DNA from: a virus
Taxonomy: Duplodnaviria > Heunggongvirae > Uroviricota > Caudoviricetes
DNA length: 64,000 bases
Virus record (IMG/VR): IMGVR_UViG_3300013126_000013
Reading direction: 5' to 3' (one strand)
In this document: one piece after another, positions 37,561-52,413 of the stretch
How positions within the stretch are numbered: the stretch's first letter is position 1
Layout of the letters: each line of letters opens with the position of its first letter
Made by a program: the position numbers and the translations under genes
The notes under the pieces: model-generated
The model's input: only the letters and a program-made list of their open reading frames with translations
Told to the model about the DNA's origin: nothing
Databases searched by the model: none

Positions 37561-37574
37561 GTTGTTCTCCGTTG

Positions 37575-37617: not shown

Positions 37618-38303
37618 TTTTCTTGAGTTTCTTGCACTTTTTTTCGCGAAGATTTCTTTAGGCTTGTCATAACTACAGGTTCAGCTTCTTCGATATCGTT
37701 AGCTTCCTGCGCAGCTTTTTCTGCTTCCATCTTTGCTTTCTTTGCTTCAAGACGCTTGATTACTTCGTCGCCATCCATCCAAAGATCTTTGTTGTTCAAC
37801 ATAAGCCTGATTTCTTCTTCAGTCAAGAAGTCTTCATAGATGTCACGCAGAAGCTTCTCTGACCAAACACGCTCATGCTGCAATTGGTCAAGCATCTCGC
37901 CTCCTTTACCCATAACACCACCAGAATAGTTATGGAACATAAACATCGAGTGTTCAGATACTTCAAACTGATCAGCACAAAGGAAGATCATAGTTGCAGC
38001 AGACATACAAGCACCTTCAACTGATACTATCACGGTCGCATCGGTTTCAGAGAGTACTCGCATGAATTGAATCGCAGTGAACAGATCACCGCCATATGAG
38101 TTAATGAACAGACGAATTACGTCTGTTGCGCCCGAATGTCGAATCGTATCAAACCACTCAATATATTCATCGGCTGATTCGATGTTACCGCAAAGATAAA
38201 ATTCGTGGATATTAACAACAGCTCTCGATGTATAACGATCCTGCTGTTTGTTCTTTTGCTGGAACAAATCCATGATGTCGATCTGTTTCATTTTCTTTTG
38301 CAT
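37611..38303 (-). CDS. ClpP-family (S14) serine peptidase-like protein
   Basis: INSYGGDLFTA..GACMSAATMIFL resembles ClpP core; acidic coiled-coil C-terminus. Confidence 0.5.
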   Translation of the reverse strand: MQKKMKQIDIMDLFQQKNKQQDRYTSRAVVNIHEFYLCGNIESADEYIEWFDTIRHSGATDVIRLFINSYGGDLFTAIQFMRVLSETDATVIVSVEGACMSAATMIFLCADQFEVSEHSMFMFHNYSGGVMGKGGEMLDQLQHERVWSEKLLRDIYEDFLTEEEIRLMLNNKDLWMDGDEVIKRLEAKKAKMEAEKAAQEANDIEEAEPVVMTSLKKSSRKKVQETQEKG

Positions 38304-38320
38304 TATCGCTCCTTTTTTTG

Positions 38321-38349
38321 TTGACGTTCTTTGTAGTCTAAGTATAATA
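38321..38349 (+). promoter_or_regulatory. plus-strand sigma70-consensus promoter (TTGACG-17-TATAAT)
   Basis: TTGACGTTCTTTGTAGTCTAAGTATAAT; would produce transcript antisense to 38404..38757. Confidence 0.35.
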
Positions 38350-38403
38350 GCTTTAAGGCTATCAAATGTAATAGATTTGAGATTGAACCATTAATAGTTC
38401 AAT

Positions 38404-38757
38404 TTAGAGATTAAACCATTCCTTCGTAAACAGAACATTCGACGGTACGTCGAACTGCTTAAGCAGAGAGTAAATCTGCTCACGAGAGTATCCAGCCAAG
38501 CCGGTACCGATAGGAGTGAGCATGAAAATATCTTCAGGGTGTTCTTTTGCATAATCGATGAAGTCAGCTAAGTGCCGACCGATTGCATCGAGGGTAAGGA
38601 CGTTGAGAAGATAATCTTTGGTTGGAACTGCATACGAGTTCCCTTGGCGACCAATGCCTTCGCCATATTGCGCGCCATAGTGCGTTAACGCATGGAGTGC
38701 TGCACCTTTGCCGTGGCGGCCAGCAAGGTTACTCCCGAAGACGAAGACGTTCGCCAT
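38404..38757 (-). CDS. hypothetical protein (117 aa)
   Basis: ORF. Confidence 0.4.
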   Translation of the reverse strand: MANVFVFGSNLAGRHGKGAALHALTHYGAQYGEGIGRQGNSYAVPTKDYLLNVLTLDAIGRHLADFIDYAKEHPEDIFMLTPIGTGLAGYSREQIYSLLKQFDVPSNVLFTKEWFNL

Positions 38758-38971
38758 ATTCTTTCACTACCTCATCAGCAAATTCAATCACATCAAACGG
38801 CACCTTTATGCCAATCACTTGATGTTCCCAGAAGCCCACTGAGCCTCTCAATATGTATATCTTTGGCTTTTTAGAAAAGAAAAAACGACTCCACACTGAG
38901 ATTCTCTCCTCGATACGAAGAGTGAACTCATGAGAGCCGTGATAGGTCGTGTGAACTAATCTGTACTTCAT
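38729..38971 (-). CDS. hypothetical protein (80 aa)
   Basis: ORF. Confidence 0.3.
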   Translation of the reverse strand: MKYRLVHTTYHGSHEFTLRIEERISVWSRFFFSKKPKIYILRGSVGFWEHQVIGIKVPFDVIEFADEVVKEYGERLRLRE

Positions 38972-39011
38972 AGAGATATTTATATATCAGTTATGAAGGG
39001 ATGTCAACCCT
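38970..39011 (-). promoter_or_regulatory. phage promoter (TTGACAT family)
   Basis: TTATATATCAGTTATGAAGGGATGTCAACC. Confidence 0.55.
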
Positions 39012-39372
39012 GTTCGATACGGTCCATCTCTGCTTTGCGCTCCTCAAGCCAAGCGTCAGCCTCTTTTTCGTCGAGGAAGTAACCACTCCAATGATTGGCT
39101 TCATTAATGTTTCCTTCATCAATCATATTACCATCGTCAAGATAATACTCGTCGATATGATCTTCCATGCTTGGAACAAGACCTTCAACTACTTTTAGCA
39201 CGCGGCCGACGATCGTGTATTCAGTCTTTGTTTGAGCACGAAGCGGCTGATCATATCGAAACCACTCTATACCGTTTTGGTCTTTAAAGTAGATCTTCTT
39301 ACGATGAAAAGCATTGTTATCCTCTTCAACGTAATAAACTTTTGTACCGATTTCAAGCCGTTCATTAATCAT
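39004..39372 (-). CDS. hypothetical protein (122 aa)
   Basis: ORF. Confidence 0.4.
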   Translation of the reverse strand: MINERLEIGTKVYYVEEDNNAFHRKKIYFKDQNGIEWFRYDQPLRAQTKTEYTIVGRVLKVVEGLVPSMEDHIDEYYLDDGNMIDEGNINEANHWSGYFLDEKEADAWLEERKAEMDRIEQG

Positions 39373-39613
39373 CTGTTATCCTTATCCATTGTACATCGTC
39401 AAGGTAATCAAGATAGATGTTAGGATCATTCTCTTTTCCATACGCCATCACAATCGGCCCATCCATCGAGGGGCCAACAAAGATAGTATGAAAAATAAGA
39501 TCTTCTGCTTTCTCAAGGTCCTTGAATATGTATTCCAATTCAGGAAACACATACTCGAGTGTTTCTTCTACTTGAGGAGCACGATCAGACACCCAGACAA
39601 TCGGAAATTTCAT
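39365..39613 (-). CDS. hypothetical protein (82 aa)
   Basis: ORF. Confidence 0.4.
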   Translation of the reverse strand: MKFPIVWVSDRAPQVEETLEYVFPELEYIFKDLEKAEDLIFHTIFVGPSMDGPIVMAYGKENDPNIYLDYLDDVQWIRITDD

Positions 39614-39645
39614 ATCTCACCTATTTTTCTGTAGTTAGCCATTCA

Positions 39646-39801
39646 GGTACTATCTCTTTTTCCATCAAAAATTACTGAAGTACTTGGTCTAACAATACCA
39701 CAAGTTTTACAATATGTCAATATAACTTTGAAGCGAAAGTCGTCTTCAATGAAGAGTTCCTTCCGCTCCAGATCTACGTTATGACAACATCTTCCCGCCA
39801 T
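39646..39801 (-). CDS. small Zn-ribbon-like protein (51 aa)
   Basis: sub-threshold ORF MAGRCCHNV..CKTCG with AAGGAG RBS. Confidence 0.35.
39685..39723 (-). promoter_or_regulatory. phage promoter (TTGACAT family)
   Basis: revcomp ATTGACATATTGTAAAACTTGTGGTATTGT. Confidence 0.45.
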
Positions 39802-39868
39802 TAGAACTCCTTCGTCATAGGGTTCTGAATCACAGTGTAGTCCTTTGCAAGAAGCTGATTCGTGCTCA

Positions 39869-40150
39869 CTACATTACCTTTCCATCTTGATCGAGATGCT
39901 TTTCGATCTTGGGTCGACCAAGCCAAGTCTGCAGAGTTTCTTGGTACTCTTCATGAGACTTGATAGTTGCAATCATGCCATAGAAGTGGCCCACGCTCAG
40001 AACCTTTGAACCTTTGTAGACGAAGTGATTGCCGAAGCGATCCTCGAGGAAGTTCATGTGGGTGTATCCAAAGGTGTTCTGAAAGGTACGAGACTTCACG
40101 CACTTAACAAACACATACATACGTTCACCAATGGTTCCGACGTGTTTCAT
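39869..40150 (-). CDS. hypothetical protein (93 aa)
   Basis: ORF. Confidence 0.4.
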   Translation of the reverse strand: MKHVGTIGERMYVFVKCVKSRTFQNTFGYTHMNFLEDRFGNHFVYKGSKVLSVGHFYGMIATIKSHEEYQETLQTWLGRPKIEKHLDQDGKVM

Positions 40151-40164
40151 TTCGCATATCCGTT

Positions 40165-40208
40165 GCTTACCAGTTAGATATAAGTCATAGTCTCTCGAAT
40201 GTCAACCG
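40165..40208 (-). promoter_or_regulatory. phage promoter (extended consensus copy)
   Basis: GTTGCTTACCAGTTAGATATAAGTCATAGTCTCTCGAATGTCAACC. Confidence 0.6.
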
Positions 40209-40263
40209 GTAAAATGAAAAAAGTGCCCCGAAGGACACTTTTTCTTACATGGGTACTTTAAGA

Positions 40264-40761
40264 TTACGCGTGGTCCTTCAGACCACGACCGTGAGCAACA
40301 CCGTCTGCACCGAAGGATGCAGCCCAGCTCTCTGGCTTCAGCTTTGGTTCAATACCGGTCATACCGAGAACATAACCAGCGGCTTCGTTCGCAGCACAGT
40401 TTGAACCGAACTTTGGGTCGGTGTTAATATCGAGATGAATCTCTACATCGAACTCGTCGATGAAAGGTGCAAGCTGACTGTACAGCGCGCAGACCTTTGA
40501 AACCTCGTTCATCATACGCATCTTCGGACGATTCTTCTTCAAGTCGTAGTCAGGTTCGTGGTCGACGTGGCTGAAGATACGGCAGCCATTCTTACCGTTC
40601 ATATGAACAATAGCTACTGTTGCGTATCGAGCATGCCAGCGTTCGTCCTTGCGGTAACGAACAGAGTCACATCCGAGATAGATCTTTGTTTCTTGGCCCA
40701 ACGTGATGAGCAAGTTAACTATTTCTTCTACTTGTGATTGAGTAAACATTTCTAACTCCAT
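40264..40761 (-). CDS. hypothetical protein (165 aa; possibly RNase-H-fold)
   Basis: ORF. Confidence 0.45.
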   Translation of the reverse strand: MELEMFTQSQVEEIVNLLITLGQETKIYLGCDSVRYRKDERWHARYATVAIVHMNGKNGCRIFSHVDHEPDYDLKKNRPKMRMMNEVSKVCALYSQLAPFIDEFDVEIHLDINTDPKFGSNCAANEAAGYVLGMTGIEPKLKPESWAASFGADGVAHGRGLKDHA

Positions 40762-40769
40762 TATGTACC

Positions 40770-40809
40770 CATGCTTCCATTATATCTATATATCAGAAAA
40801 TGTCAACTG
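40770..40809 (-). promoter_or_regulatory. phage promoter (TTGACAT family); boundary with plus-strand block
   Basis: TATATCTATATATCAGAAAATGTCAACTG. Confidence 0.55.
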
Positions 40810-40840
40810 CTATAAATACTAAGTCAAAGAGGAGAGTGGT

Positions 40841-41119
40841 ATGGATTTTCTTAGCTTAGTATCTGATGTAGGATTTCCGATTGCGGCTTCTCTGGCTGGT
40901 GGGTTCTTTGTTTTTCTAACGCTTCGGTTTATTCTTGATGGCGTGTTAGGCAGCATCAAAACCCAACGCGGGTTTGTAATGGCTCTGAATAATCGCGTAA
41001 AGACTATGAACAACGAATTAGTTCGAATCGATGTTTTAATTTGTAATGCGTTCGGTGTAAGACCTGACCTTGATCGCATTGCTCGTGCAGATGGTCAGGC
41101 TGATGCAAGGAAAGACTGA
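40841..41119 (+). CDS. single-pass membrane protein (paralog of next gene)
   Basis: AGGAGAG RBS; GFPIAASLAGGFFVFL TM segment. Confidence 0.4.
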   Translation: MDFLSLVSDVGFPIAASLAGGFFVFLTLRFILDGVLGSIKTQRGFVMALNNRVKTMNNELVRIDVLICNAFGVRPDLDRIARADGQADARKD

Positions 41120-41421
41120 TGCAAGAAATAGCTAACGCGATTAATCAATACGGCTTTCCTATCATTGCTGCGTTTGGTTTAGGCTACTTCATTTACTATA
41201 TTTGGACATGGGTGACTGAACAAGTAGATCCTATCGTAAATGAATCCCATATGACTCTGATTGGTTTGATTGATCGTATTCGAATGCTAGACAATGATTT
41301 GATTCGTCTGCGGGCAAAGTTGGATATGATTCTACAGGAACAGGAAAGAGATAAACATGAGGCTGCTGCTACCAATAATACTAATGACGACAACTCCGGC
41401 AATCGCTCAGGAGGCGTATAA
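41119..41421 (+). CDS. single-pass membrane protein (paralog of previous gene)
   Basis: YGFPIIAAFGLGYFIYYIW TM + coiled coil; ATGA coupling. Confidence 0.4.
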   Translation: MQEIANAINQYGFPIIAAFGLGYFIYYIWTWVTEQVDPIVNESHMTLIGLIDRIRMLDNDLIRLRAKLDMILQEQERDKHEAAATNNTNDDNSGNRSGGV

Positions 41422-41794
41422 CTTCTCGAATCCTTCCTTTTCTGGACAAGGGTTTTCTCAGCATATTCTTACACTCGAACAGATGACTCAAAAGAATGAG
41501 CAGGCAATCGATGAACGTGAGAGAGCATTAGCTGAAGAAATTGAACGTGAGCTTCGAAACTCAAATCTAAATAAGTTCTTAAACAACGTCGAAGCAAGAA
41601 TTTACGCCGAGATGTCGAAGCAGCTTGTCGATGCTATCTTTGGAGACAATCCAAGCGCCTCTGGTACAATTGAACTTGGAGGCAATACTATAGAATACTA
41701 CAATGATGGTGTAGATGTTTATCTCACAATCACTGACCAGAATGGTAATTCAACAGAAATAGTTGTACCTTATGGAACGTTAGGAATCGGATGA
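41357..41794 (+). CDS. csgF: CsgF-like curli assembly protein
   Basis: signal peptide MRLLLPIILMTTTPAIAQ; YNFSNPSFSGQGF (cf. CsgF FQFRNPNFGG) and C-terminal LTITDQNGNSTEIVV (cf. NVTDRKTGQTSTIQV). Confidence 0.6.
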   Translation: MRLLLPIILMTTTPAIAQEAYNFSNPSFSGQGFSQHILTLEQMTQKNEQAIDERERALAEEIERELRNSNLNKFLNNVEARIYAEMSKQLVDAIFGDNPSASGTIELGGNTIEYYNDGVDVYLTITDQNGNSTEIVVPYGTLGIG

Positions 41795-42519
41795 TGAAAT
41801 ACCTTGTCATTCCACTTATGGTTGCTGGATGTGTAAATACGGCTGCAGTTCAAGAAGATCCTGAACTCGTAACGCCTACACAAAGCTACGAAGTGCCTGC
41901 ACCACGCAGTGGAAAGATTGTGGTTGGTGTATACGGCTTTGCTGATATGACTGGTCAGAGAACAGGTACAACTTTATCATCTGCTGTAACACAAGGCGCA
42001 GAGAACTATCTTATCACTGGACTCAAAGATTTCGATAATGGTGAATGGTTTCGTGTTGTTGATAGAAAAGCAATCGATAATTTAATCAAAGAGCGACAAA
42101 TCATTAAGTCAGCGAATCCTAGCTTCACCGACGCAGATATGCCAACAATGCTTTATGCCGGCATACTCATTGAAGGCGGAATTGTGGGGTATGACACAAA
42201 CGTTGTATCTGGTGGAGATGGTGTTCGGATATTTGGTATAGGAGCAAGCGGGAAATATTCGAAACATGTTGTTACGATATCGCTTAGAGCAGTATCAGTC
42301 GCAACAACAGAAGTTTTAGCGAGTGTATTAGTGCAAAAAACAATAGTGAGTAAATCGGAAAACACTACAGTTGTTGCATTCTTTGATCAAGACACTCAAA
42401 CCATTGAAATGGAATCGGGATCAAATTATAATGAACCCTCAAATTATGCTGTACAATCAGCGATTGAGAAGGGTATATATGAATTAGTTATAGAGGGAAA
42501 AAGGCAAAAAATCTGGTAA
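41791..42519 (+). CDS. csgG: CsgG-like curli secretion-channel lipoprotein
   Basis: lipobox MVAGC; IVVGVYGFADMTGQ and ILIEGGIVGYDTNVVSGGDGVRIFGIGA closely parallel E. coli CsgG core. Confidence 0.85.
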   Translation: MMKYLVIPLMVAGCVNTAAVQEDPELVTPTQSYEVPAPRSGKIVVGVYGFADMTGQRTGTTLSSAVTQGAENYLITGLKDFDNGEWFRVVDRKAIDNLIKERQIIKSANPSFTDADMPTMLYAGILIEGGIVGYDTNVVSGGDGVRIFGIGASGKYSKHVVTISLRAVSVATTEVLASVLVQKTIVSKSENTTVVAFFDQDTQTIEMESGSNYNEPSNYAVQSAIEKGIYELVIEGKRQKIW

Positions 42520-42528
42520 AGGAAAAAG

Positions 42529-43209
42529 ATGAAACATTTAGCTATTACAGCAGTGCTTGTAATGGTGCCTACTATAACATTTGCAGATCAGTCTGTGTAT
42601 ATTGACCAGGCAGGTGAAAATTTAAACGCTACTATTATCCAAAAATTGGGTGATAACAACACGATCGGTGATATCACTGCCACCGACAAATACTTCTATC
42701 TCGACGGTGATGACATGACACTCACCTTCGGAATGGAAGGTGATGCAAACAAATTAATCGGTTCGATCTCTGGTGATACCTTAGATTTTACTTTGTCACA
42801 AATTGGTGATAACAACCTATTTGAGATTTATGCTACGCTTTCATCAAGCAGTTCTTTGTTGTGGAATATTATTGGAAGCGCGAATGAAGTGTACCTCAAC
42901 ATGGGCCAAGTAGTAAGCGCTGAATATACAACGCTTGATTACAACATAACCGGCAATGACAATATCTTCAATATTGGTATTGATGCCGATGGGGCTACTC
43001 ATACTGTTGAGTTAACCGGTAATAGTAATGAATATACAATTACTCAAACTGGGTACGGGAGTTCATTAGAAGGTCACCTCATCACTGTCGATGCTACTGG
43101 CAACTTCAATAGTGTAACTATTCTGCAAGAAACTACAACTGCGCAATCGATCGTTAATATGGTGACCAATGGCTCGAATCAGGTTATTAGCATTACTCAG
43201 TCTGATTAA
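42529..43209 (+). CDS. secreted curlin-like repeat protein (putative amyloid subunit)
   Basis: signal peptide; imperfect repeats ..ITQ.G..N.. (TITQTGYGSS, ISITQSD, TIIQKLGDNN), Gln/Asn/Gly-rich. Confidence 0.5.
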   Translation: MKHLAITAVLVMVPTITFADQSVYIDQAGENLNATIIQKLGDNNTIGDITATDKYFYLDGDDMTLTFGMEGDANKLIGSISGDTLDFTLSQIGDNNLFEIYATLSSSSSLLWNIIGSANEVYLNMGQVVSAEYTTLDYNITGNDNIFNIGIDADGATHTVELTGNSNEYTITQTGYGSSLEGHLITVDATGNFNSVTILQETTTAQSIVNMVTNGSNQVISITQSD

Positions 43210-44215
43210 TCTGATTGCTGCACCATCGATAGCTGGCATTGGAGAAATAACTGAGTATAGTGGAACTGGGATGGTCGCGCGCTCTGAAGAAGAGATTAAC
43301 GCCGACCTCTCATTGCCTATTGAAATGAACGATTATATCCAGACTGCCAAAGGTGTTATTGGTATTACCTTTGATGATGAGACACAAATAAAAGTATCAG
43401 AACACTCTGAACTAACTATCGACGATTTTGTATATGACCCGAATACAAGTCAAGGGTCTCTTGGCCTCAAGGTTGCGATGGGTACCGTGAAATATGCTTC
43501 AGGAAATATTGCTCACTCGGATCCAGACAGCGTTGATATTGAAACTCCTTCAGCCACAATTGCTGTTCGTGGCACAGCATTCACTATGACGGTTGATGAA
43601 CTCGGTAAATCACTTATAATACTTGTTCCGAATATAGACGGATCTGTCGGTTCAATCGAAGTTTCAAACGATGTCGGGTTCGTTGTGCTAAACCGAGCAT
43701 TTGAATCTGTTCGTGTTAGCTCTCGAGATTCTGCTCCATCAAAACCAGTTATAGTTTCTATTGATGAAAGCAATATCGACAACTATATGATTATTAGTCC
43801 ACCGAAAGAAGTAAAGGATAAGATTATCAGAGAAGCAAAGAGTAGCAATCCTCTCGACGAAAACGAATTAGATGTTGACTTACTTAAAGCAGATTTTCTT
43901 GATACTCGAGATCTTGAATTTAACGAGCTCGATGTCACCTATCTCGATGAAGTTATCTTCGAAGACCTTTTAAGATCTACGGATGCATCTGCTACCGACG
44001 GCGTAGTTCCTGGCCAGAATTCAGTAACTGGTGTTATAACAATTAAACAAGATCCTTATGTTGAAGTAATAAGAATGAATTCAAAGGGTACATTTGGTAT
44101 TAAGTTTGTAGAAGAGACCGGTATAAACACGACTGCAACACAAGGCGAAATAACGATAAATATTATTACTCTCGATGGGCAATCAAGCAATTTTATAAGG
44201 TTAATACAACAATGA
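43169..44215 (+). CDS. FecR-domain-like secreted protein
   Basis: signal peptide; TPSATIAVRGTAFTM-type FecR motif. Confidence 0.45.
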   Translation: MARIRLLALLSLINLIAAPSIAGIGEITEYSGTGMVARSEEEINADLSLPIEMNDYIQTAKGVIGITFDDETQIKVSEHSELTIDDFVYDPNTSQGSLGLKVAMGTVKYASGNIAHSDPDSVDIETPSATIAVRGTAFTMTVDELGKSLIILVPNIDGSVGSIEVSNDVGFVVLNRAFESVRVSSRDSAPSKPVIVSIDESNIDNYMIISPPKEVKDKIIREAKSSNPLDENELDVDLLKADFLDTRDLEFNELDVTYLDEVIFEDLLRSTDASATDGVVPGQNSVTGVITIKQDPYVEVIRMNSKGTFGIKFVEETGINTTATQGEITINIITLDGQSSNFIRLIQQ

Positions 44216-46212
44216 AAATATTATTATCGCCGATGTGGGCAATCATTACAACCGCCGCTTTGACTTGGTTGACTCTATCAAATCCTACATTTCTACAAAA
44301 CGTCGAACTAAAACTCTTTGATCAGATGATTATTCAAGAGCCAATCAAAAACACCGACGCAGTTCTTGTCGATATATCAGAAAAGACACTTGACAAATAC
44401 GGGCAGTTTCCGTTCCCACGTGACACATACGCAGATATCATTACGCGATTAAGAGAATCAAACGCCGGTGTAATCGTACTTAACCTATCTTTCCCTGAAG
44501 AAGATAGAACTGGCAAAGATAGTAAATTCATCGAGGTACTTCCTCAGGGTGTAATACTTGCACACTTTCCATCTGAGAAGACTGAAGGAAGAGCTGCATA
44601 TGCTACGGGCATCGCAGAGGTCGGCGTTCCTGCTTCTAACTTTGTGCCTCGATATAAAGGCATAGCTGCGAACCTTCCACAATACGAATCAGCTGCTTCT
44701 GGCATCGGTATCGCAAACACTTTACCGGAAATAGACGGTGTTGTTCGTCGGCTTCCTATGATATCTGCAGTCGACGATAAACTATATCCTTCAATTGTTC
44801 TTGAAATATTTAAAGCTTACGCTGGTACTAACACGTATCAGATCAAGTCTTCTGATTTTGGTGTTGAGGCTGTTCGAGTAAAAGGATTTGATGCCATTAA
44901 AACTGACCAGTTATCTCGTATCTGGATCAATCCAAACTTTACGTTCCAACGATATGACGCTGCTGATAACTTTCCAGATCTTATGGGTGCTACAGTCTTT
45001 ATCGGTGTAACGGCTGAAGGTATATCCAATCCGGTTCCAACTGCAGCCGGAGCGTCATACGGTCATGATGTAGTAGCAAAAGCTTTTGCATCAGTAACAA
45101 GTGGTTACAACATTGTAACACCAATGGAAAGTGAACTATATAAGTTAGCTGCTATCATTGGTCTCGGGCTTGTGATCGTGTTAAGTAGTTATATAAGATT
45201 CGGCTGGGCACTTCCGATTATTCTTGTGATTGGTGCAATTGCCTATCCATTCTATCTGTTTGCTACTAGCTCGATTCTCATCAACACTGCAATTCCTGCA
45301 CTTATGTCGATTCTTGTCTTTGCTCATGTATACGGTGTAAAGTATGGCCAAGAATACTTCGCGAAGATGCAAATCAAGAAACAGTTTGGTACTTACCTAT
45401 CTCCAGCAATGGTTGAAAAACTACAAAAGAATCCTGATCTACTTAAGCTCGGTGGCGAGACTCGCGAACTCTCGATTATGTTTACAGACGTTCGTGGATT
45501 TACGACGATCTCTGAACATTACGGCGAAAACGTACAAGGGTTAACTCAAATCATGAATCGTTATATGACAGCCATGACTGCTAAGATTCTTGAGAATGAA
45601 GGTACTCTTGACAAATACATCGGCGACGCACAGATGGCGTTTTGGAATGCTCCACTTGACGACTCTCAACATGCAAAGAACGCAGTAAGAACTGCGCTTG
45701 CTATGCTCGAAGACTTGGAGAAGTTCAATGAAGAAATTGCTCAAGAAGGCGTGCCGGCTTTTGGAATGGGACTTGGGATTAATACTGCTCATGTGGTTGT
45801 GGGCAATATGGGTTCTTCTCAGCGTTTTGATTATACTTGCTTAGGCGACGGTGTTAACCTTGCTTCTCGTCTCGAAGGGCAGTCAAAACCATATGGCGTA
45901 AAGATGATTCTTGGTCCTGTGACTGCTGAACAGGTGAGAGACGAATTTGACGTATGCGAACTAGATTGTATAGCTGTGAAGGGTAAGACAGTTGGTGCAA
46001 AGATCTACACCATCCATAAGCAAACGGATGAACACAAAGCCTTCTTAAGAAGCTACTATGATGGCGATTGGGCTACTGCTATATATCGCTTAGAAAAGGC
46101 ACGAGCAATATCGCCGGGTCTTAGCACATATTACGATGCAATGTACGATCGTATTCAAAGCGGCAAAGCTCCAGCAAATTGGGATGGTACTTACCGCTCA
46201 AACTCAAAGTAA
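44212..46212 (+). CDS. CHASE2-sensor membrane adenylate/guanylate cyclase
   Basis: N-terminal TM + periplasmic CHASE2-like domain, TM bundle, class III cyclase core (SIMFTDVRGFTTISE..CLGDGVNLASRLEG). Confidence 0.75.
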   Translation: MKILLSPMWAIITTAALTWLTLSNPTFLQNVELKLFDQMIIQEPIKNTDAVLVDISEKTLDKYGQFPFPRDTYADIITRLRESNAGVIVLNLSFPEEDRTGKDSKFIEVLPQGVILAHFPSEKTEGRAAYATGIAEVGVPASNFVPRYKGIAANLPQYESAASGIGIANTLPEIDGVVRRLPMISAVDDKLYPSIVLEIFKAYAGTNTYQIKSSDFGVEAVRVKGFDAIKTDQLSRIWINPNFTFQRYDAADNFPDLMGATVFIGVTAEGISNPVPTAAGASYGHDVVAKAFASVTSGYNIVTPMESELYKLAAIIGLGLVIVLSSYIRFGWALPIILVIGAIAYPFYLFATSSILINTAIPALMSILVFAHVYGVKYGQEYFAKMQIKKQFGTYLSPAMVEKLQKNPDLLKLGGETRELSIMFTDVRGFTTISEHYGENVQGLTQIMNRYMTAMTAKILENEGTLDKYIGDAQMAFWNAPLDDSQHAKNAVRTALAMLEDLEKFNEEIAQEGVPAFGMGLGINTAHVVVGNMGSSQRFDYTCLGDGVNLASRLEGQSKPYGVKMILGPVTAEQVRDEFDVCELDCIAVKGKTVGAKIYTIHKQTDEHKAFLRSYYDGDWATAIYRLEKARAISPGLSTYYDAMYDRIQSGKAPANWDGTYRSNSK

Positions 46213-46222
46213 CGGAAACAAC

Positions 46223-46543
46223 ATGTCAGAAGATATAAAAATTGACGAATGCGAAGTGGTGGATGAAAAGTTGAATATGAAAGAAAAACAACTGAAAATT
46301 GAAAACGCTGACAAGAGAGAAGATGCTCAGCGCAGAATGGCTTGGTTTGCTCTTTTTGGGATGTTATTATATCCTATATCAGTTGTAATCGCAGCGTGCT
46401 ATGACCTAGATCACGCTGCTACAGTTCTAGGTGATATTGCTCCAACTTACTTCGTATCAGTCGCAGCGATCGTAGCAGCATTTTACGGTGCACAAGCGTA
46501 TAATACCGTTAAGGTGAATTCGAAGCCATCAGATGGTAATTAA
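46223..46543 (+). CDS. small membrane protein (106 aa)
   Basis: ORF shortened to MSEDIKIDE start after cyclase stop. Confidence 0.4.
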   Translation: MSEDIKIDECEVVDEKLNMKEKQLKIENADKREDAQRRMAWFALFGMLLYPISVVIAACYDLDHAATVLGDIAPTYFVSVAAIVAAFYGAQAYNTVKVNSKPSDGN

Positions 46544-46748
46544 GAACAAAGTTCTCTACTAACAATTTAGTTAATGCAGCAAGAGCTATAGTTTGGCGAT
46601 CAGCCGGATTATGGCTCTTCATCATTTCAATTACTTGCTCTGCCATCTTACGATATGCATCTTCTTCTTTAATAGGAATCATTCCCCAATCAATAGGATC
46701 ACCATTCTCTATTTCGTGCGCAAGCTCGACTAACTGATCAATATTCAT
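46509..46748 (-). CDS. hypothetical protein (79 aa)
   Basis: ORF. Confidence 0.4.
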   Translation of the reverse strand: MNIDQLVELAHEIENGDPIDWGMIPIKEEDAYRKMAEQVIEMMKSHNPADRQTIALAALTKLLVENFVLNYHLMASNSP

Positions 46749-46894
46749 GCTGTGTAATACGAAGTATGACCGGTTTTGTTCAACTCTTCAAATTTAACAA
46801 GCTTTCCGTCTTCATAGTATTCCCACAAATGTTCGATACCATCGACAAATGCTTCTTCTTTTTCCTCAAGCTTTTCTTTTACTTCTTCCGACAT
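46746..46894 (-). CDS. small acidic protein (49 aa)
   Basis: sub-threshold ORF, GAGGAA RBS, ATGA coupling. Confidence 0.35.
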
Positions 46895-46949
46895 GATTTC
46901 CTCTATTGAAACTACAAAGCGGCCAGAGACAAACTCTAGCCGCTACGAT

Positions 46950-47023
46950 TGGTGCTGAAGGAGAGAATCGAACTCTCATCGATGGGATACGAAGCCATTG
47001 TAATACCACTATACTACGTCAGC
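46950..47023 (-). tRNA. tRNA (probable Thr, anticodon CGU; one acceptor mismatch)
   Basis: T-arm GAGAGTTCGATTCTCTC, acceptor GCTGACG/CTTCAGC+A+CCA encoded. Confidence 0.45.
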
Positions 47024-47029
47024 ATGAAT

Positions 47030-47105
47030 TGGTGCTGCAAGAGGGAATCGAACCCCCGACCTGATGCTTACAAGGCAACTGCTCTACCGACTGAGCTACT
47101 ACAGC
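47030..47105 (-). tRNA. tRNA-Thr(UGU)
   Basis: cloverleaf: GCTGTAG..GCTCAGTCGGTAGAGC..loop CTTGTAA..GGGGGTTCGATTCCCTC..TTGCAGCACCA. Confidence 0.65.
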
Positions 47106-47112
47106 GTTATTT

Positions 47113-47185
47113 TGGAGCGGGTAGCCAGAATCGAACTGGTCTCCTACAGCTTGGAAGGCTGCCTGGCTACCATAGCCTTACCCGC
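47113..47185 (-). tRNA. tRNA-Gly(UCC)
   Basis: acceptor GCGGGTA/TACCCGC, anticodon loop CTTCCAA, T-loop TTCGATT, CCA encoded. Confidence 0.6.
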
Positions 47186-47263
47186 GTTATTCTTATTTAT
47201 ACTTCTCGCTCCGACCAGTCCATTTAGAGTTTGGACAAACTTGGGGCTAAAAAGCCACTCCAC

Positions 47264-47287
47264 CACCTGCTTTTACGAAAGCAGGAA
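47264..47287. other. perfect 8-bp hairpin (CCTGCTTT-TACG-AAAGCAGG)
   Basis: between HEG and tRNA-Gly; possible processing/termination structure. Confidence 0.3.
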
Positions 47288-47357
47288 AATTCGTCAGGAT
47301 CGTTTTGTCCGCTAAGACATCGAATATTATTTAGCGTTTTTGTTTGCTGAACCGATC

Positions 47358-47993
47358 CTATCTCTTACGACTTTTATACCATCCTTCTGGTATAATGTCA
47401 ACATCTTTTTTGATCTTCTTGTTCTCTTTACCGTCCGTTATCCACATCGTGCCGAACTGAGAATTTGAAGAACCAACATTCTTTGACTTACGCAACTTTT
47501 GTATCGTATCTTCTGAATGCTTCTTTCCTGTAAAGCCTCTACTGTTTTTGCCACCTAGAGAAGAATGAATTTTTCTTTTAGTTACAAAGTCATCATCTGT
47601 TTCCATAAGTCTTTTTATAACTCGTGCAGCTGCAGCAGATGCCTTTTTAGAAAAATTTGGATCTAACCTTCTTTGTTCATCTAAAGATACAGACTTTCCA
47701 CTCATGTTCAGATAACCAAATCCACCATTACCTCCTGGGCAAAGGTTGTAAGTGTCTTCTCTTAAGCAGAACTCTTCTGTTACCAACAGAGCTTCTTTAG
47801 CATTCATATCAGCTTCATTATCAAACTGGAAGAGAATTTCTTTCGTAAAGTTCTCGATTCCATGTTTGTTTTGAGCAGATTTTAGATGTTTACCAGAACC
47901 CATGTAACCATCATTCAAGTCTTTGGTCTGATGTTTTCCAATATAGATCTCGCCATTGATTAGGTTAGTGATCTTGTAGATTGTGTAGAACAT
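47358..47993 (-). mobile_element. GIY-YIG homing endonuclease gene (segB-like position in tRNA cluster)
   Basis: MFYTIYKITNLINGEIYIGKH GIY-YIG. Confidence 0.7.
47365..47404 (-). promoter_or_regulatory. phage promoter inside 3' end of HEG, driving tRNAs
   Basis: revcomp GTTGACATTATACCAGAAGGATGGTATAAA. Confidence 0.5.
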
Positions 47994-48048
47994 TGTTTGT
48001 ACTCATAGTTTTATGCCTTCGCTACTATTTATACAAACAATGTTCTCT

Positions 48049-48125
48049 GTGTCCGGATGGTGGGACTCGAACTCACGACCTACGGTACCCAAAACCGTCG
48101 CGCTACCAGACTGCGCTACACCCGG
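48049..48125 (-). tRNA. tRNA-Pro(UGG)
   Basis: CCGGGTG TA GCGC..loop TTTGGGT..TTCGAGT..CATCCGG A. Confidence 0.6.
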
Positions 48126-48243
48126 ATTATTCTTTGACGTACTCTCCCGTCTGAGTCACCTGGTGCCATCAGGTCAGAGTCAGTATAATCACCCAAACTA
48201 GTAATAGTCTTGCAGGGTTTTGGCGTATCTGACTACGCATATT

Positions 48244-48318
48244 TGGCAGGGGCCGTGGGAATTGAACCCACTTCTCAAGGTTTTGGAGACCTGCGGATTA
48301 CCACTTTCCTTGACCCCT
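48244..48318 (-). tRNA. tRNA-Trp(CCA)
   Basis: acceptor AGGGGTC/GGCCCCT, loop CTCCAAA, T-arm GTGGGTTCAATTCCCAC, CCA encoded. Confidence 0.55.
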
Positions 48319-48326
48319 ATAATCTT

Positions 48327-48402
48327 TGGCTCCCTGAGTAGGGCTTGAACCTACGACCCGCTGATTAACAGTCAGCTGCTCTACCAACTGAGCTATCAGG
48401 AA
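48327..48402 (-). tRNA. tRNA-Asn(GUU)
   Basis: GCTCAGTTGGTAGAGC D-arm, loop CTGTTAA, GTAGGTTCAAGCCCTAC. Confidence 0.65.
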
Positions 48403-48403
48403 T

Positions 48404-48800
48404 AAACTATTTGTCCATTGTACACCCGCAACGGACTAACGACTTGATAGGGTGACCCTCAGACTGAGTAGTTGAACTTCTGACATCTTTTAATGTTCAA
48501 CTTCTACGTGCCAACTCGTCTTCTCATGGTGTCGTCTTAACTTTATTCTCTGTTTTCAACGATACACCACCAAAGCGCTTGAAGCCCGAAGAGGTGGCAA
48601 CAGCTACTATGTCTACCCGCTTACATCTTTCGAATGGTGCACGTAGTGTATCTATGAAAACAGAGTACTCGTTATAACACTATTTATATTCGGGTCTTAC
48701 GGGTTTGTCCCTGCCCGATAATCAACTGGAACTTCTACCTTCATGATCTCGGATCGTCGTGGTTTTCTTGTTCCTTACTATTACAATCTATACTATTCTA
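48404..48800 (-). ncRNA. ~400-nt non-coding transcribed spacer (candidate small stable RNA(s))
   Basis: no ORF, no tRNA; lies between promoter at 48807 and tRNAs; near-repeats GTTGAACTTCT/GTTCAACTTCT. Confidence 0.3.
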
Positions 48801-48815
48801 CAGGAATGTCAACTA
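48775..48815 (-). promoter_or_regulatory. phage promoter (TTGACAT family) driving ncRNA/tRNA block
   Basis: CAATCTATACTATTCTACAGGAATGTCAACTAC. Confidence 0.6.
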
Positions 48816-49036
48816 CTATTTTTAGTTTTTCGCACTTTTTTCTTTTGATCTTGCATGAGGTGTAAATGCTTTTGATACAAGTGTTCTTCTTCTTGTTCTT
48901 CGCGAGTCTCGCGAATCGCTTTAATTGTTTTGATCAATTTACGATGCGCTCGAGCGACGAGTGATCGTTGGAATCGATCTTTACGAGAAGGTTTTTCGAA
49001 ATGGATTTCTACGTCTTCAGTAGTTACTTCAGTCAT
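48809..49036 (-). CDS. hypothetical Lys/Arg-rich protein (75 aa)
   Basis: GAGGTGAT RBS. Confidence 0.4.
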   Translation of the reverse strand: MTEVTTEDVEIHFEKPSRKDRFQRSLVARAHRKLIKTIKAIRETREEQEEEHLYQKHLHLMQDQKKKVRKTKNSS

Positions 49037-49059
49037 AACATCACCTCATTGTTGTTATA

Positions 49060-49147
49060 TGGCGGATGGAGGAGGAATCGAACCCCATAGGTTTCCCTAT
49101 GAACCGCTTTCCAGGCGGCCTCCCGCGCCAGCTAGGAGACTCCATCC
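49060..49147 (-). tRNA. tRNA-Ser(GGA), type II
   Basis: GGATGGA acceptor, loop CTGGAAA, long variable arm CATAGGGAAACCTATG, CCA encoded. Confidence 0.6.
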
Positions 49148-49171
49148 ATACTTTGAGGTTTGCTATATTTA

Positions 49172-49259
49172 TGGCAGAAGGTAGAAGCATCGAACTTCTG
49201 ACGAATTAACGTCACCCGGGCTTTCGAGACCCGTTGAGGAGCCAACCTCGGTACCTTCC
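49172..49259 (-). tRNA. tRNA-Ser(CGA), type II
   Basis: GGAAGGT/ACCTTCT acceptor, loop CTCGAAA, long variable arm, CCA encoded. Confidence 0.55.
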
Positions 49260-49263
49260 ATAT

Positions 49264-49353
49264 TGGCGGATACGGCAGGATTTGAACCTGCGGACCCCTT
49301 TCGGGATCGACGGTTTAGCAAACCGCTGGTTTAAGCCACTCACCCACGTATCC
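49264..49353 (-). tRNA. tRNA-Ser(GCU), type II
   Basis: GGATACG/CGTATCC acceptor, loop TTGCTAA, variable arm GATCCCGAAAGGGGTC, T-arm GCAGGTTCAAATCCTGC. Confidence 0.6.
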
Positions 49354-49357
49354 AATA

Positions 49358-49732
49358 TTATCCAGCAGATCGAGTAATGAAGTTCAATCTGATCTTTTCT
49401 GGGCTAAAGTACTTAGCGATAAGTTCTTCTGCAATCTTTACGTCAACAGTCTTGCACGAGAAGATGTCAATATATGCATCACCATTTGAGTCAACAAGAT
49501 GCCCAGAGATATTGCTTGTCTCGATCATCTGAATAAAGCTGATACCAGCCTTGTCAGGTGCATGTGTAGCAAAATGCTCGATCATTGGTTCGCCATATGC
49601 AATCATATCGATCGCTGGCACCAACTCTTTAATGAAGTTGTAAACGTTTTCTTTGCTTGTAATTTTGTCAATGTCACATGCGGCGCAGTCGAACATTGCG
49701 TGATAGCCCCAATAAGCCATAGTATCCTCCAT
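49358..49732 (-). CDS. speD: S-adenosylmethionine decarboxylase-like (SpeD class 1b, pyruvoyl-dependent) protein
   Basis: GYHAMFDCAACD and GISFIQMIETSNISGHL..IDIFSC parallel SpeH (HLVAEFYECD..VVVISESHLTIHTWPE..IDLFTCG). Confidence 0.5.
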   Translation of the reverse strand: MEDTMAYWGYHAMFDCAACDIDKITSKENVYNFIKELVPAIDMIAYGEPMIEHFATHAPDKAGISFIQMIETSNISGHLVDSNGDAYIDIFSCKTVDVKIAEELIAKYFSPEKIRLNFITRSAG

Positions 49733-49738
49733 TATTGT

Positions 49739-49815: not shown

Positions 49816-49816
49816 G

Positions 49817-52412: not shown

Positions 52413-52413
52413 G

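What the first reader, a model, noticed from the sequence alone, without database searches (positions are those of the whole stretch)
40841..46543. Curli-type amyloid secretion module (CsgF + CsgG + curlin-repeat protein) wired to a FecR/CHASE2-cyclase pair inside a phage genome
The only long plus-strand block in an otherwise minus-strand phage region encodes the following, with phage-like codon use and tight coupling:
- two paralogous single-pass membrane proteins (40841..41421);
- a CsgF-like secreted protein;
- a CsgG-like lipoprotein (lipobox MVAGC; core motifs VYGFADMTGQ and ILIEGGIVGYDTNVVSGGDGVRIFGIGA almost collinear with E. coli CsgG);
- a secreted Gln/Asn/Gly-rich protein with imperfect ..ITQxG..N.. 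repeats, reminiscent of curlin subunits;
- a FecR-domain-like secreted protein;
- a CHASE2-sensor membrane nucleotidyl cyclase.
CsgG/CsgF form the outer-membrane curli channel. I do not know of this module being described as phage cargo, nor coupled to a CHASE2 cyclase. No CsgE/CsgC/CsgD homologues are visible.
Basis: partly seen in the sequence, partly recalled or inferred. Interest (0 to 1): 0.9.

Follow-up and report, generated by a model that had tools for sequence, protein, structure and literature searches.

The report
Known phage curli module, new member
This marine T4-like phage carries a curli-type secretion gene set joined to a membrane sensor that makes cAMP; the gene calls are correct, but the same cassette has been published for ocean phages since 2020-2022, so this is a divergent new copy rather than a discovery.

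Summary
Window 40841-46543 (+) has eight tightly packed genes: two paralogous small membrane proteins, CsgF, a CsgG lipoprotein, a curlin-repeat beta-solenoid protein, a secreted FecR-domain protein, a CHASE2 class III adenylate cyclase with all catalytic residues, and a small 2-TM protein. It sits in an uncultivated T4-like marine myophage. An independent assembly spans both junctions, so it is not an artefact.

The novelty claim fails. The same syntenic cassette is annotated in Pelagibacter phage HTVC008M and the Methylophilales Melnitz phages. It is described in PMC7029224, PMC9004378 and PMC9599517, and the last of these names FecR and the adenylate cyclase. I found at least 579 related stretches in IMG/VR.

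What I add:
- The cyclase sensor is CHASE2, and FecR+CHASE2 is a known bacterial signalling pair.
- The published "histidine kinase" label for the small proteins is not supported.
- A T4-type late promoter (TATAAATA) precedes the block.
- The cassette has been relocated and inverted, and has lower GC3 than its flanks.

Function remains untested. Verdict: new member of a known kind, modest interest.

The parts
40811..40818 (+). TATAAATA, the T4-type late-promoter consensus, 22 nt upstream of the first ATG and followed by a GAGGAG ribosome-binding site
   Evidence: Sequence read. The octamer occurs 22 times in the window against 1.8 expected (0 of 100 shuffles reach 22), mostly co-oriented with genes. 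The exact octamer lies within 200 nt upstream of the first module gene in 22 of 87 related loci, including Melnitz and L004. That it acts as a late promoter is inferred from T4 biology, not shown.
40841..41119 (+). Small single-pass membrane protein 1 (92 aa), with an N-terminal TM helix and then a predicted helical tail
   Evidence: phrog_18771 E 4.8e-27. TM segment at aa 10-32. Paralogue of the next gene. No HisKA/HATPase_c domains.
41119..41421 (+). Small single-pass membrane protein 2 (100 aa), paralogue of the previous gene
   Evidence: phrog_18771 E 7.4e-29. An exhaustive phmmer search found 378 representatives, and the best 150 are all 49-209 aa. No kinase domains in the longest ones. 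Among deposited phages it occurs only in CsgG-carrying phages.
41357..41794 (+). CsgF-like secreted protein (145 aa with signal peptide MRLLLPIILMTTTPAIA)
   Evidence: Pfam CsgF E 1.9e-17. phrog_35372 E 4.9e-39. N-terminal motif YNFSNPSFSGQG matches the E. coli CsgG-binding peptide FQFRNPNFGGNP and is conserved in 70 of 93 relatives.
41791..42519 (+). CsgG-like outer-membrane lipoprotein channel (242 aa, lipobox MVAGC)
   Evidence: Pfam CsgG E 2.8e-43. NCBIfam CsgG E 4e-41, below the equivalog cut-off. PDB 3X2R/4UV3/6L7A E ~2e-38 over aa 5-242. The constriction loop is shortened to RTGTTLS, with Leu where E. coli has F56 and the Y51 position deleted.
42529..43209 (+). Secreted curlin-repeat protein (226 aa, signal peptide ...TITFA|DQ), the putative fibre subunit or substrate
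   Evidence: Curlin_rpt 19.1 bits, sub-threshold. NCBIfam CsgA E 9e-5. 37 of 47 family members hit Curlin_rpt. Family profile vs PDB 8C50 E 7.3e-6 and CsgA 8ENQ E 0.015. The AF2 model (pLDDT 83.4, pTM 0.79) shows about 17 regular 6-8 residue strands with 4-residue turns.
43169..44215 (+). Secreted FecR-domain protein (348 aa): signal peptide, FecR/PupR-type beta domain (aa 25-183), disordered acidic Leu-rich linker (aa 200-274), small C-terminal beta domain (aa ~276-348)
44212..46212 (+). CHASE2-sensor class III adenylate cyclase (666 aa): N-terminal TM, periplasmic CHASE2, three TM helices (aa ~306-374), cytoplasmic cyclase domain
   Evidence: CHASE2 E 1.3e-35 and Guanylate_cyc E 3e-18. phrog_35576 E 1e-216. 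PDB CyaC/CyaB/bPAC E 1e-30 to 1e-24. Catalytic set D426, K468, D472, R538, T542, N549, R553 is intact.
46223..46543 (+). Small 2-TM protein (106 aa) at the end of the block. Membership in the module is uncertain.
   Evidence: TM segments found. Homologue directly downstream of the cyclase in L013 and L015, and elsewhere near the module in L004, L048 and L086. No family assignment.

Best explanation
This is a divergent copy of the already described 'viral curli / type VIII secretion' cassette of marine T4-like and HTVC023P-type phages.

Proposed working:
1. The block is transcribed as one unit from a T4-type late promoter.
2. CsgG (lipoprotein) and CsgF assemble an outer-membrane channel in the infected cell.
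3. The Sec-exported curlin-repeat protein passes through the channel and stacks into a beta-solenoid fibre or coat on the cell surface.
4. In parallel, the secreted FecR-domain protein and the CHASE2 domain of the inner-membrane cyclase form a periplasmic sensing pair, as they do in bacterial FecR/CHASE2 cassettes. This pair converts an envelope-side cue into cAMP in the cytoplasm.
5. The two small inner-membrane paralogues are co-inherited accessory components of unknown role.

Shown here: gene identities, intact secretion signals, the lipobox, the CsgF plug motif, the cyclase catalytic residues, strict co-inheritance of the parts across viral contigs, and phage context.

Inferred: late timing, actual fibre formation, the FecR-CHASE2 contact, cAMP as the product, and the benefit to the phage. 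Published proposals for the benefit are aggregation ('sibling capture'), exclusion of other phages, and lysis timing.
For: Identity of parts.

Same gene order in HTVC008M and Melnitz.

Conservation across 80 IMG/VR loci:
- CsgF-CsgG always adjacent.
- FecR downstream in nearly all loci with enough flank.
- Cyclase downstream in nearly all loci with more than 6 kb of flank.
- Small-TM pair upstream, or inverted downstream.

Among 50,697 deposited phages, the small-TM protein and the CHASE2 cyclase occur only in the phages that have CsgG.

CsgF N-terminal CsgG-binding motif conserved. Curlin family with signal peptide and confident solenoid-like model. All class III cyclase catalytic residues present, with the Lys/Thr adenine-specifying pair as in CyaC.

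FecR-domain periplasmic protein next to a CHASE2 sensor is an established bacterial cassette (PMC5192318).

Late-promoter octamer directly upstream, 12-fold enriched in the window.

Phage context (CobS/CobT, NAMPT, NadR-like, RNR, ligase, PhoH, 33-34 tRNAs, tmRNA).

Literature describing the cassette, with metatranscriptomic expression: PMC7029224, PMC9004378, PMC9599517.
Against: - No experiment anywhere shows fibres. Buchholz et al. saw no clumping of Melnitz-infected cells in cytograms or TEM (PMC9004378).
- The window's repeat protein alone is below the Pfam Curlin_rpt threshold, and its model has no significant Foldseek match in PDB.
- The CsgG constriction loop is shortened and lacks the Tyr/Phe of E. 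coli, so channel properties may differ.
- No CsgE, CsgC or CsgD equivalent was found among the block's eight ORFs, which are the only ones profile-scanned for them.
- No cAMP receptor was found in the window. That scan was heuristic and covers only part of the genome.
- The cyclase domain also matches Pycsar pyrimidine-cyclase models, so the product nucleotide is not proven.
- The late-promoter assignment rests on a consensus match only.
Confidence: 0.6

Rival explanations
1. Pore-only reading (Buchholz et al. 2022). CsgG/CsgF have been repurposed as a gated outer-membrane pore (a pinholin- or secretin-like device). It helps time or execute lysis and does not export an amyloid. The cyclase/FecR arm and the small membrane proteins would regulate its opening.
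For: - Late-promoter consensus upstream fits a lysis-stage function.
- Two small paralogous single-pass inner-membrane proteins resemble holin/antiholin pairs in size and topology. One has a weak hit to a holin PHROG (E 0.0012, N-terminal 19 aa only).
- The altered constriction loop suggests changed channel properties.
- No clumping was seen in Melnitz infections (PMC9004378).
Against: - A conserved, signal-peptide-bearing curlin-repeat protein sits immediately after CsgG in most relatives (tblastn detects it at that position in about half of the fetched loci; it diverges fast). Family members pass Curlin_rpt. The premise that csgA/B are missing is therefore wrong, as Wittmers et al. also found.
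- The CsgF plug motif, which narrows the pore rather than opening it, is conserved.
- An outer-membrane 1-nm pore does not by itself depolarise the inner membrane.
- The holin hit is weak and very short.
Confidence: 0.2
2. Import-channel reading (Zaragoza-Solas 2020, Wittmers 2022). The ungated CsgG channel (no CsgE) lets nutrients or cofactors into the periplasm of the infected cell. FecR would hint at iron-siderophore sensing.
For: - No CsgE homologue in the block.
- The FecR domain fold equals that of siderophore cell-surface-signalling regulators such as PupR.
- The idea is proposed in PMC7029224 and PMC9599517.
Against: - This FecR-like protein lacks the N-terminal anti-sigma domain and the TM helix of true FecR regulators. 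It is a secreted protein paired with CHASE2, a pairing found in non-iron systems.
- No TonB-dependent receptor or ECF sigma factor lies in the block.
- This reading does not explain conservation of CsgF and the curlin protein.
Confidence: 0.1
3. Artefact reading. The block is host or foreign bacterial DNA joined to phage sequence by mis-assembly.
For: Module GC3 (0.34) and codon usage differ from the flank average. The block is inverted relative to its neighbours.
Against: - An independent assembly from another sequencing run (L083, SRR11049220) is 99.994% identical over window 31998-48367 and crosses both junctions.
- There is no GC step at 1-kb resolution.
- The nearest homologues of all parts are on viral contigs.
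- Bacterial isolates with CsgG lack the FecR/cyclase/small-TM neighbours.
- The phage late-promoter motif sits at the block's 5' edge.
Confidence: 0.01

Closest known systems
Viral T8SS/curli cassette of pelagiphages (HTVC008M; pelagimyophage MAGs; HTVC023P-type podophages) and Methylophilales phage Melnitz (PMC7029224, PMC9004378, PMC9599517)
   Same: - Same genes in the same order: two small proteins, CsgF, CsgG, curlin-repeat protein, FecR, cyclase.
- Same lack of CsgE/C/D.
- Same T4-like marine phage background, with a permuted alpha-type tmRNA also present.
   Different: - Only 37-41% amino-acid identity to the cultured phages and at most 61% to any IMG/VR locus for CsgG.
- Compact version without the second curlin-repeat gene between FecR and the cyclase.
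- Short 7-residue CsgG constriction loop, against 11 residues in most relatives.
- Sits at a different, inverted position next to a 33-34 tRNA array, rather than after the PhoH/replication genes.
- Phage GC is about 44%, and the host is unknown.
Bacterial curli system (E. coli csgBAC/csgDEFG; alphaproteobacterial curli operons)
   Same: - CsgG lipoprotein channel.
- CsgF with the N-terminal plug peptide.
- Secreted Q/N-ladder curlin repeats.
   Different: - No CsgE, CsgC/H or CsgD.
- One fibre gene rather than a CsgA/CsgB pair.
- Constriction loop lacks Y51/F56.
- Linked to FecR, a CHASE2 cyclase and small TM proteins. These are absent within 9 kb of csgG in 15 or more bacterial isolate and high-GC genomes.
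Bacterial FecR-domain / CHASE2-sensor cassettes (e.g. Burkholderia contaminans BiofilmReg operon, PMC5192318)
   Same: A secreted or periplasmic FecR-domain protein is encoded next to a membrane sensor with a periplasmic CHASE2 domain.
   Different: - The output here is a class III adenylate cyclase, not a histidine kinase with a response regulator.
- The FecR protein has no LysM domain. It carries an acidic disordered linker and a small C-terminal beta domain instead.
FecR/PupR cell-surface signalling anti-sigma regulators
   Different: - No cytoplasmic anti-sigma domain and no TM anchor.
- No partner TonB-dependent transducer or ECF sigma factor in the block.
Retention ('plug') module of LapA/MpIBP-type RTX adhesins (PDB 5IX9; PMC5550230; bioRxiv 10.1101/198937)
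   Different: - Not detectable by sequence or profile search.
- Domain order is reversed. There is no RTX repeat, T1SS signal or LapG site.
- The pore in this system would be CsgG, not a TolC-like protein.

Membership tests
Type VIII (curli) secretion system | CsgG outer-membrane lipoprotein channel (PF03783, lipobox Cys) | tested here: met
   Pfam E 2.8e-43. Full-length alignment to E. coli CsgG structures at E 2e-38. Lipobox MVAGC read.
Type VIII (curli) secretion system | CsgF with an N-terminal peptide that inserts into CsgG | tested here: met
   Pfam CsgF E 1.9e-17. Motif YNFSNPSFSG matches E. coli FQFRNPNFGG and is conserved in 70 of 93 relatives. Complex formation itself was not modelled.
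Type VIII (curli) secretion system | Secreted curlin-repeat subunit (PF07012) | tested here: met
   The window protein is 1.6 bits below the cut-off. Its family is clearly curlin: 37 of 47 members hit, best E 3.6e-12, and PDB 8C50 E 7.3e-6. Signal peptide present. Regular strand-turn-strand model.
Type VIII (curli) secretion system | Separate nucleator (CsgB) and major subunit (CsgA) | tested here: not met
   The window has only one curlin-repeat gene. Relatives often have a second one between FecR and the cyclase.
Type VIII (curli) secretion system | CsgE periplasmic adaptor/cap, CsgC/H inhibitor, CsgD regulator (gammaproteobacterial type) | tested here: not met
   No such Pfam or NCBIfam hits in any of the eight ORFs. 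There is only a non-significant CsgH match at E 1.2. From the curli literature as I know it, these components are not universal outside Gammaproteobacteria.
Type VIII (curli) secretion system | Formation of extracellular amyloid fibres (Congo red/ThT, EM) | not testable with these tools
   Needs an experiment.
Viral curli cassette of marine phages (Wittmers 2022) | Gene order: small proteins, CsgF, CsgG, curlin, FecR, (curlin2), adenylate cyclase | tested here: met
   The window lacks only the optional second curlin gene.
Viral curli cassette of marine phages (Wittmers 2022) | Encoded on a phage genome | tested here: met
   T4-like marine phage gene set and tRNA array in the flanks. An independent assembly spans both junctions.
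Viral curli cassette of marine phages (Wittmers 2022) | Components fall in the monophyletic viral clade | tested here: inconclusive
   No tree was built. CsgG identity is 43-61% to viral loci and 37-42% to bacterial isolates. The full module occurs only on viral contigs or on low-GC contigs binned with MAGs.
Viral curli cassette of marine phages (Wittmers 2022) | Host is SAR11 or OM43 | not testable with these tools
   Host unknown. About 44% GC and 33-34 tRNAs differ from HTVC008M/Melnitz-type genomes. The alpha-type tmRNA is only a hint.
FecR-domain / CHASE2 signalling cassette | Secreted FecR-domain protein adjacent to a membrane protein with a periplasmic CHASE2 domain | tested here: met
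   The genes overlap by 4 nt. The bacterial precedent is PMC5192318. Physical interaction was not tested.
Class III adenylate cyclase | Two metal-binding Asp, a Lys plus Asp/Thr adenine-specifying pair, a phosphate-binding Arg, and transition-state Asn and Arg | tested here: met
   D426, D472, K468, T542, R538, N549, R553, by alignment to CyaC (1WC0) and others.
Histidine kinase (label used for the small upstream proteins in PMC9599517) | DHp (HisKA) and catalytic HATPase_c domains | tested here: not met
   The proteins are 92 and 100 aa and have no such Pfam hits. The 150 best homologues out of 1.84 billion representatives are all 49-209 aa. The longest carry no kinase domain.
Pycsar anti-phage system (PycC cyclase plus effector) | Pyrimidine cyclase adjacent to a cNMP-binding effector | tested here: not met
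   PycC HMM hits (E 6.4e-25) reflect the shared cyclase fold. No effector-like or cNMP-binding gene is in the block. Purine-type Lys/Thr residues are present.

The most novel reading that the evidence does not exclude
The FecR-like protein is the missing link between the two halves of the cassette.

- Its small plug-fold domain (like the LapA/MpIBP retention module) and its 75-residue disordered linker lodge at or thread through the CsgG channel. There it would act as a cap or tether that replaces CsgE.
- Its FecR domain contacts the CHASE2 domain of the cyclase.
- The cassette would then be a trans-envelope signalling device: outer-membrane channel to periplasmic FecR to inner-membrane cyclase. 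This is analogous to FecA-FecR cell-surface signalling but with cAMP as output.
- It would let a late-stage infected cell report secretion or fibre state, or an outside event such as contact with another cell or a superinfecting phage.

None of the three phage-curli papers mentions a plug-like domain or CHASE2.
Probability: 0.15. Interest if true: 0.7.

Novelty: new member of a known kind. Interest (0 to 1): 0.3.

Why it matters
Phage-borne curli cassettes are abundant in the ocean. Wittmers et al. report about 0.1% of assembled viral proteins at all 65 stations examined, and their function is still unknown.

This copy shows the cassette in a larger, higher-GC, tRNA-rich T4-like phage, at a new genomic position. 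That supports the view that it travels as a self-contained unit between phage lineages, possibly beyond SAR11 and OM43 hosts.

The refinements made here turn a vague 'regulatory genes nearby' description into specific, testable interactions:
- a CHASE2 sensor with an intact adenylate cyclase;
- FecR/CHASE2 as a standard signalling pair, not an iron regulator;
- the small proteins are not kinases;
- a late-promoter motif upstream;
- a plug-fold domain in the FecR-like protein.

It does not by itself change what is known about phage biology.

Tried and rejected
1. Idea that the FecR-like C-terminus (…SSNFIRLIQQ) is a single curlin repeat that docks on the fibre. Rejected: 0 of 26 family C-terminal segments hit Curlin_rpt at E<=1, and there is no PDB curlin hit.
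2. 'Histidine kinase' identity of the small proteins. Rejected.
3. Foldseek of the curlin model against PDB. Only weak generic beta-helix matches (TM<0.4, E>0.02), so it is uninformative.
4. Locating the 5IX9 match by sequence. Neither the N-domain, the C-domain, nor the family profiles retrieve 5IX9. The tools give no aligned ranges, so assigning the match to the C-terminal domain rests on size only.
5. Megablast of the block and of 24 kb of flank against deposited phages. No relatives except tRNA fragments.
6. Naming the source or host through cluster members. No accessions or informative names.
7. Search for a phage-encoded cAMP receptor with a phosphate-binding-cassette motif. None found in 125 ORFs, but this was a heuristic.
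8. Bacterial origin of the full cassette. Isolate genomes with the closest CsgG lack the other parts. The five 'bacterial' contigs with the full cassette are 32-40% GC MAG contigs assigned to high-GC taxa, and are probably binned phage.
9. Defence-system reading (PADLOC). Only fold-level PycC hits.
10. Rfam 'tRNA-Sec' hit. The anticodon is UGA, so it is a tRNA-Ser.

Full report

Yes. Window 40841-46543 carries eight co-oriented + strand ORFs that overlap by 4-65 nt or are separated by at most 11 nt.

- CsgF (PF10614), E 1.9e-17.
- CsgG (PF03783), E 2.8e-43.
- FecR (PF04773), E 2.4e-8.
- CHASE2 (PF05226), E 1.3e-35, fused to a class III cyclase domain (PF00211), E 3e-18.

CsgG aligns over its whole length with the E. 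coli CsgG structures (E 2e-38) and has the lipobox MVAGC.

The repeat protein by itself is just under the Curlin_rpt threshold (19.1 vs 20.7 bits; NCBIfam CsgA E 9e-5). I collected its family (76 homologues). Of 47 aligned members, 37 hit Curlin_rpt (best E 3.6e-12). The family profile hits the solved 'curlin associated repeat-containing protein' 8C50 at 7.3e-6 and CsgA 8ENQ at 0.015. An AlphaFold2 model is confident (pLDDT 83.4, pTM 0.79) and consists of about 17 regular 6-8-residue strands joined by 4-residue turns.

The two small proteins are paralogues.

Minor corrections:
- The repeat protein is Thr/Ile/Asn/Gly-rich rather than Gln-rich.
- The module's codon usage is measurably more AT-rich at third positions than its flanks. 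GC3 is 0.34 vs 0.46, and RSCU r is 0.63 vs 0.83+-0.07 for controls.

**2. Context**

The window is part of an uncultivated large T4-like marine myophage.

Flanking genes include:
- CobS- and CobT-like proteins, NAMPT, a NadR-like NMNAT/NUDIX protein, ribonucleotide reductase, ATP-dependent DNA ligase and a CCA-adding enzyme;
- PhoH, a PD-(D/E)XK nuclease and a ClpP-like protease;
- 33 ARAGORN tRNAs plus one more found by Rfam;
- a permuted alphaproteobacterial-type tmRNA.

There is no nucleotide-level relative among 50,697 deposited phages.

The exact CsgG protein occurs on contigs up to 159 kb. An independent Logan assembly (L083, SRR11049220) is 99.994% identical to window 31998-48367 and crosses both edges of the block. 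There is no GC step at the edges. An assembly artefact is therefore excluded for practical purposes.

The other + strand ORFs in the window are isolated homing-endonuclease-like genes. The block really is the only multi-gene + strand unit.

**3. It is a known cassette**

A tblastn search with CsgG finds Pelagibacter phage HTVC008M and four Methylophilales Melnitz phages. Their GenBank annotations show the same order: two ~93-aa hypothetical proteins, CsgF, CsgG, a curlin-associated protein, a FecR-domain protein, (a second curlin-repeat protein), and an adenylate/guanylate cyclase.

The literature:
- Zaragoza-Solas et al. 2020 reported the 'curli operon' as widespread in pelagimyophages and proposed uptake or 'sibling capture' (PMC7029224).
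- Buchholz et al. 2022 modelled the Melnitz CsgGF pore and proposed a role in lysis timing (PMC9004378).
- Wittmers et al. 2022 described the full cassette in both podo- and myoviral pelagiphages, including FecR, an adenylate cyclase and a 'histidine kinase'. They showed it at all 65 GOV2.0 stations, found transcripts, and argued for cross-family transfer (PMC9599517).

I found no later experimental work in the held library.

In IMG/VR at least 579 stretches encode a CsgG relative. In the 80 loci fetched, CsgF-CsgG are always adjacent. FecR and the cyclase follow wherever enough flank is present. The small-TM pair lies upstream or inverted downstream.

Among deposited phages, the small-TM protein and the CHASE2 cyclase occur only in the CsgG phages.

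In bacterial isolates with the most similar CsgG (Azospirillum, Nitratireductor, Rhizobium, Methylobacterium, Mesorhizobium, Agrobacterium), none of the other parts lies within 9 kb. The five 'bacterial' contigs with the full cassette are 32-40% GC MAG contigs assigned to high-GC taxa, and are most likely binned phage.

**4. What this copy looks like**

- It is divergent: 37-41% CsgG identity to cultured phages and at most 61% to any IMG/VR locus.
- It is compact. FecR and the cyclase overlap by 4 nt, with no second curlin gene between them.
- Its CsgG constriction loop is the short form. It reads RTGTTLS (7 residues), against the 11-residue loop of most viral relatives and E. coli FKPYPASNFS. 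Leu stands at the position of F56, and the Y51 position is deleted.
- The CsgF N-terminal peptide that plugs into CsgG in E. coli is conserved. It reads YNFSNPSFSGQG against FQFRNPNFGGNP, and 70 of 93 relatives keep the motif.
- In L004 and Melnitz the cassette follows PhoH and PD-(D/E)XK genes. In the window those genes lie about 30 kb away, and the cassette is inverted next to the tRNA array and a GIY-YIG endonuclease.

Together with the lower GC3, this fits a cassette that moves between phage lineages, as Wittmers et al. proposed.

**5. Refinements bearing on mechanism**

(a) The cyclase
- It has an N-terminal TM helix, a periplasmic CHASE2 domain, three TM helices and a cytoplasmic class III domain.
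- Every canonical residue is present: metal Asp D426 and D472; adenine-specifying K468 and T542 (the class IIIb pattern of CyaC); R538; and transition-state N549 and R553.
- It is predicted to be an active adenylate cyclase. PADLOC PycC hits reflect the shared fold. The product still needs measuring.

(b) FecR
- This protein is not an iron regulator here. It has a conserved signal peptide but no anti-sigma domain or TM anchor.
- FecR-domain periplasmic proteins next to CHASE2 sensors are a known bacterial cassette (PMC5192318).

(c) A plug-fold domain
- 5IX9 is the periplasmic 'plug'/retention domain that anchors the MpIBP and LapA-type adhesins in their outer-membrane pore (PMC5550230, bioRxiv 10.1101/198937).
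- By size, the match is most likely to the small C-terminal domain (aa ~276-348). That domain follows a 75-residue disordered acidic linker.
- The tools do not report ranges, and no sequence-level search recovers 5IX9. This is a lead, not a result.

(d) The small proteins
- They are not histidine kinases. They are 92 and 100 aa with one TM helix and have no HisKA/HATPase_c.
- In an exhaustive HMMER search of 1.84 billion representatives, the best 150 relatives are all 49-209 aa, without kinase domains.

(e) Promoters
- The 79-nt region upstream of the block holds a perfect sigma-70-type promoter (TTGACA-16-TATAAT) pointing leftward.
- It also holds TATAAATA pointing rightward, 22 nt before the first ATG and followed by GAGGAG.
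- The octamer is 12-fold enriched in the window and mostly co-oriented with genes. It recurs upstream of the cassette in 22 of 87 related loci, including Melnitz.
- From T4 biology this is the late-promoter consensus, so late expression is inferred.

**6. Most likely working, and rivals**

I favour this reading: late in infection the phage installs a CsgG-CsgF channel and exports the curlin-repeat protein to the surface, while FecR-like/CHASE2 senses an envelope-side cue and makes cAMP.

I put the identification of the cassette at above 0.9, and the fibre-export-plus-cAMP-signalling mechanism at about 0.6.

- The pore-only/lysis-timing model (about 0.2) fits the late promoter and the holin-like size of the small proteins. 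It ignores the conserved secreted curlin protein and the CsgF plug motif.
- The import-channel model (about 0.1) has little specific support.
- An artefact is essentially excluded.

The benefit to the phage is not addressed by any data here. Published ideas are aggregation, exclusion of other phages, and lysis timing.

**7. Verdict**

This is a correct annotation of an already published phage cassette, and a new, divergent and relocated member of a known kind. Interest is modest. The residual interest lies in the unexplained biology of the whole class, and in the testable idea that the FecR-like protein physically couples the CsgG channel to the CHASE2 cyclase.

Noticed in passing
window 695-1075 (-): Permuted (two-piece) alphaproteobacterial-type tmRNA gene: Rfam alpha_tmRNA 101 bits and tmRNA_permuted 104 bits. 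ARAGORN did not report it. Melnitz and the pelagimyophages carry a similar ssrA (PMC9004378), so this may hint at shared ancestry or an alphaproteobacterial host.
   Followed up: no
window 46950-57821 (-): Array of 33 tRNA genes covering nearly all amino acids, interspersed with small ORFs and TATAAATA motifs. This is an unusually large set for a phage that carries this cassette.
   Followed up: partly
window 51812-51902 (-): Rfam calls this tRNA-Sec (50.6 bits, cut-off 47), but the anticodon is UGA. It is therefore a long-variable-arm tRNA-Ser(UGA) that ARAGORN missed, which makes it the 34th tRNA.
   Followed up: yes
window 52051-52125 (-): ARAGORN reports a tRNA with a four-base anticodon 'gaac' and undetermined identity. 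Rfam scores it as a weak tRNA at 41.2 bits with an enlarged anticodon region. It could be a degenerate tRNA or a frameshift-suppressor-like one.
   Followed up: no
window 47358-47993 (-), 26361-27089 (+), 57836-58429 (+): Three homing-endonuclease-like ORFs: GIY-YIG with NUMOD3, SegE-like GIY-YIG, and HNH. The two on the + strand each follow a + strand TATAAATA. One of the three lies directly beside the curli cassette and tRNA array.
   Followed up: partly
window 40779-40806 (-): Perfect 12/12 sigma-70 consensus promoter (TTGACA-16 nt-TATAAT). It points away from the cassette toward the RNaseH-like gene at 40264-40761, back-to-back with the late-promoter motif.
   Followed up: no
window 34022-36560 (-): NAD salvage pair: NAMPT (PF04095/PF18127) and a NadR-like cytidylyltransferase/NUDIX protein. 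Further upstream, at 37611-38303 (-), is a ClpP-like protease.
   Followed up: no
L085-L088 and L108 (genome contigs): Contigs binned into MAGs named Polynucleobacter, Rhodobacteraceae, Pirellulales, Luteolibacter and Legionellales carry the full or partial viral cassette. They are only 32-40% GC, so they are probably phage contigs mis-binned into bacterial MAGs.
   Followed up: partly
L002 (Melnitz) cyclase, locus ~11840-12490: The Melnitz cyclase has Ser where the transition-state Asn stands (VSTAARIE vs VNLASRLE), and Asp rather than Thr at the adenine-specifying position. Catalytic competence may therefore differ between lineages of the cassette.
   Followed up: no
IMG/VR loci L021, L022, L043, L044, L059, L072, L076: CsgG cassettes occur on viral contigs of 190-357 kb. 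The cassette is therefore also present in much larger, possibly jumbo, phage genomes than the pelagimyophages described so far.
   Followed up: no
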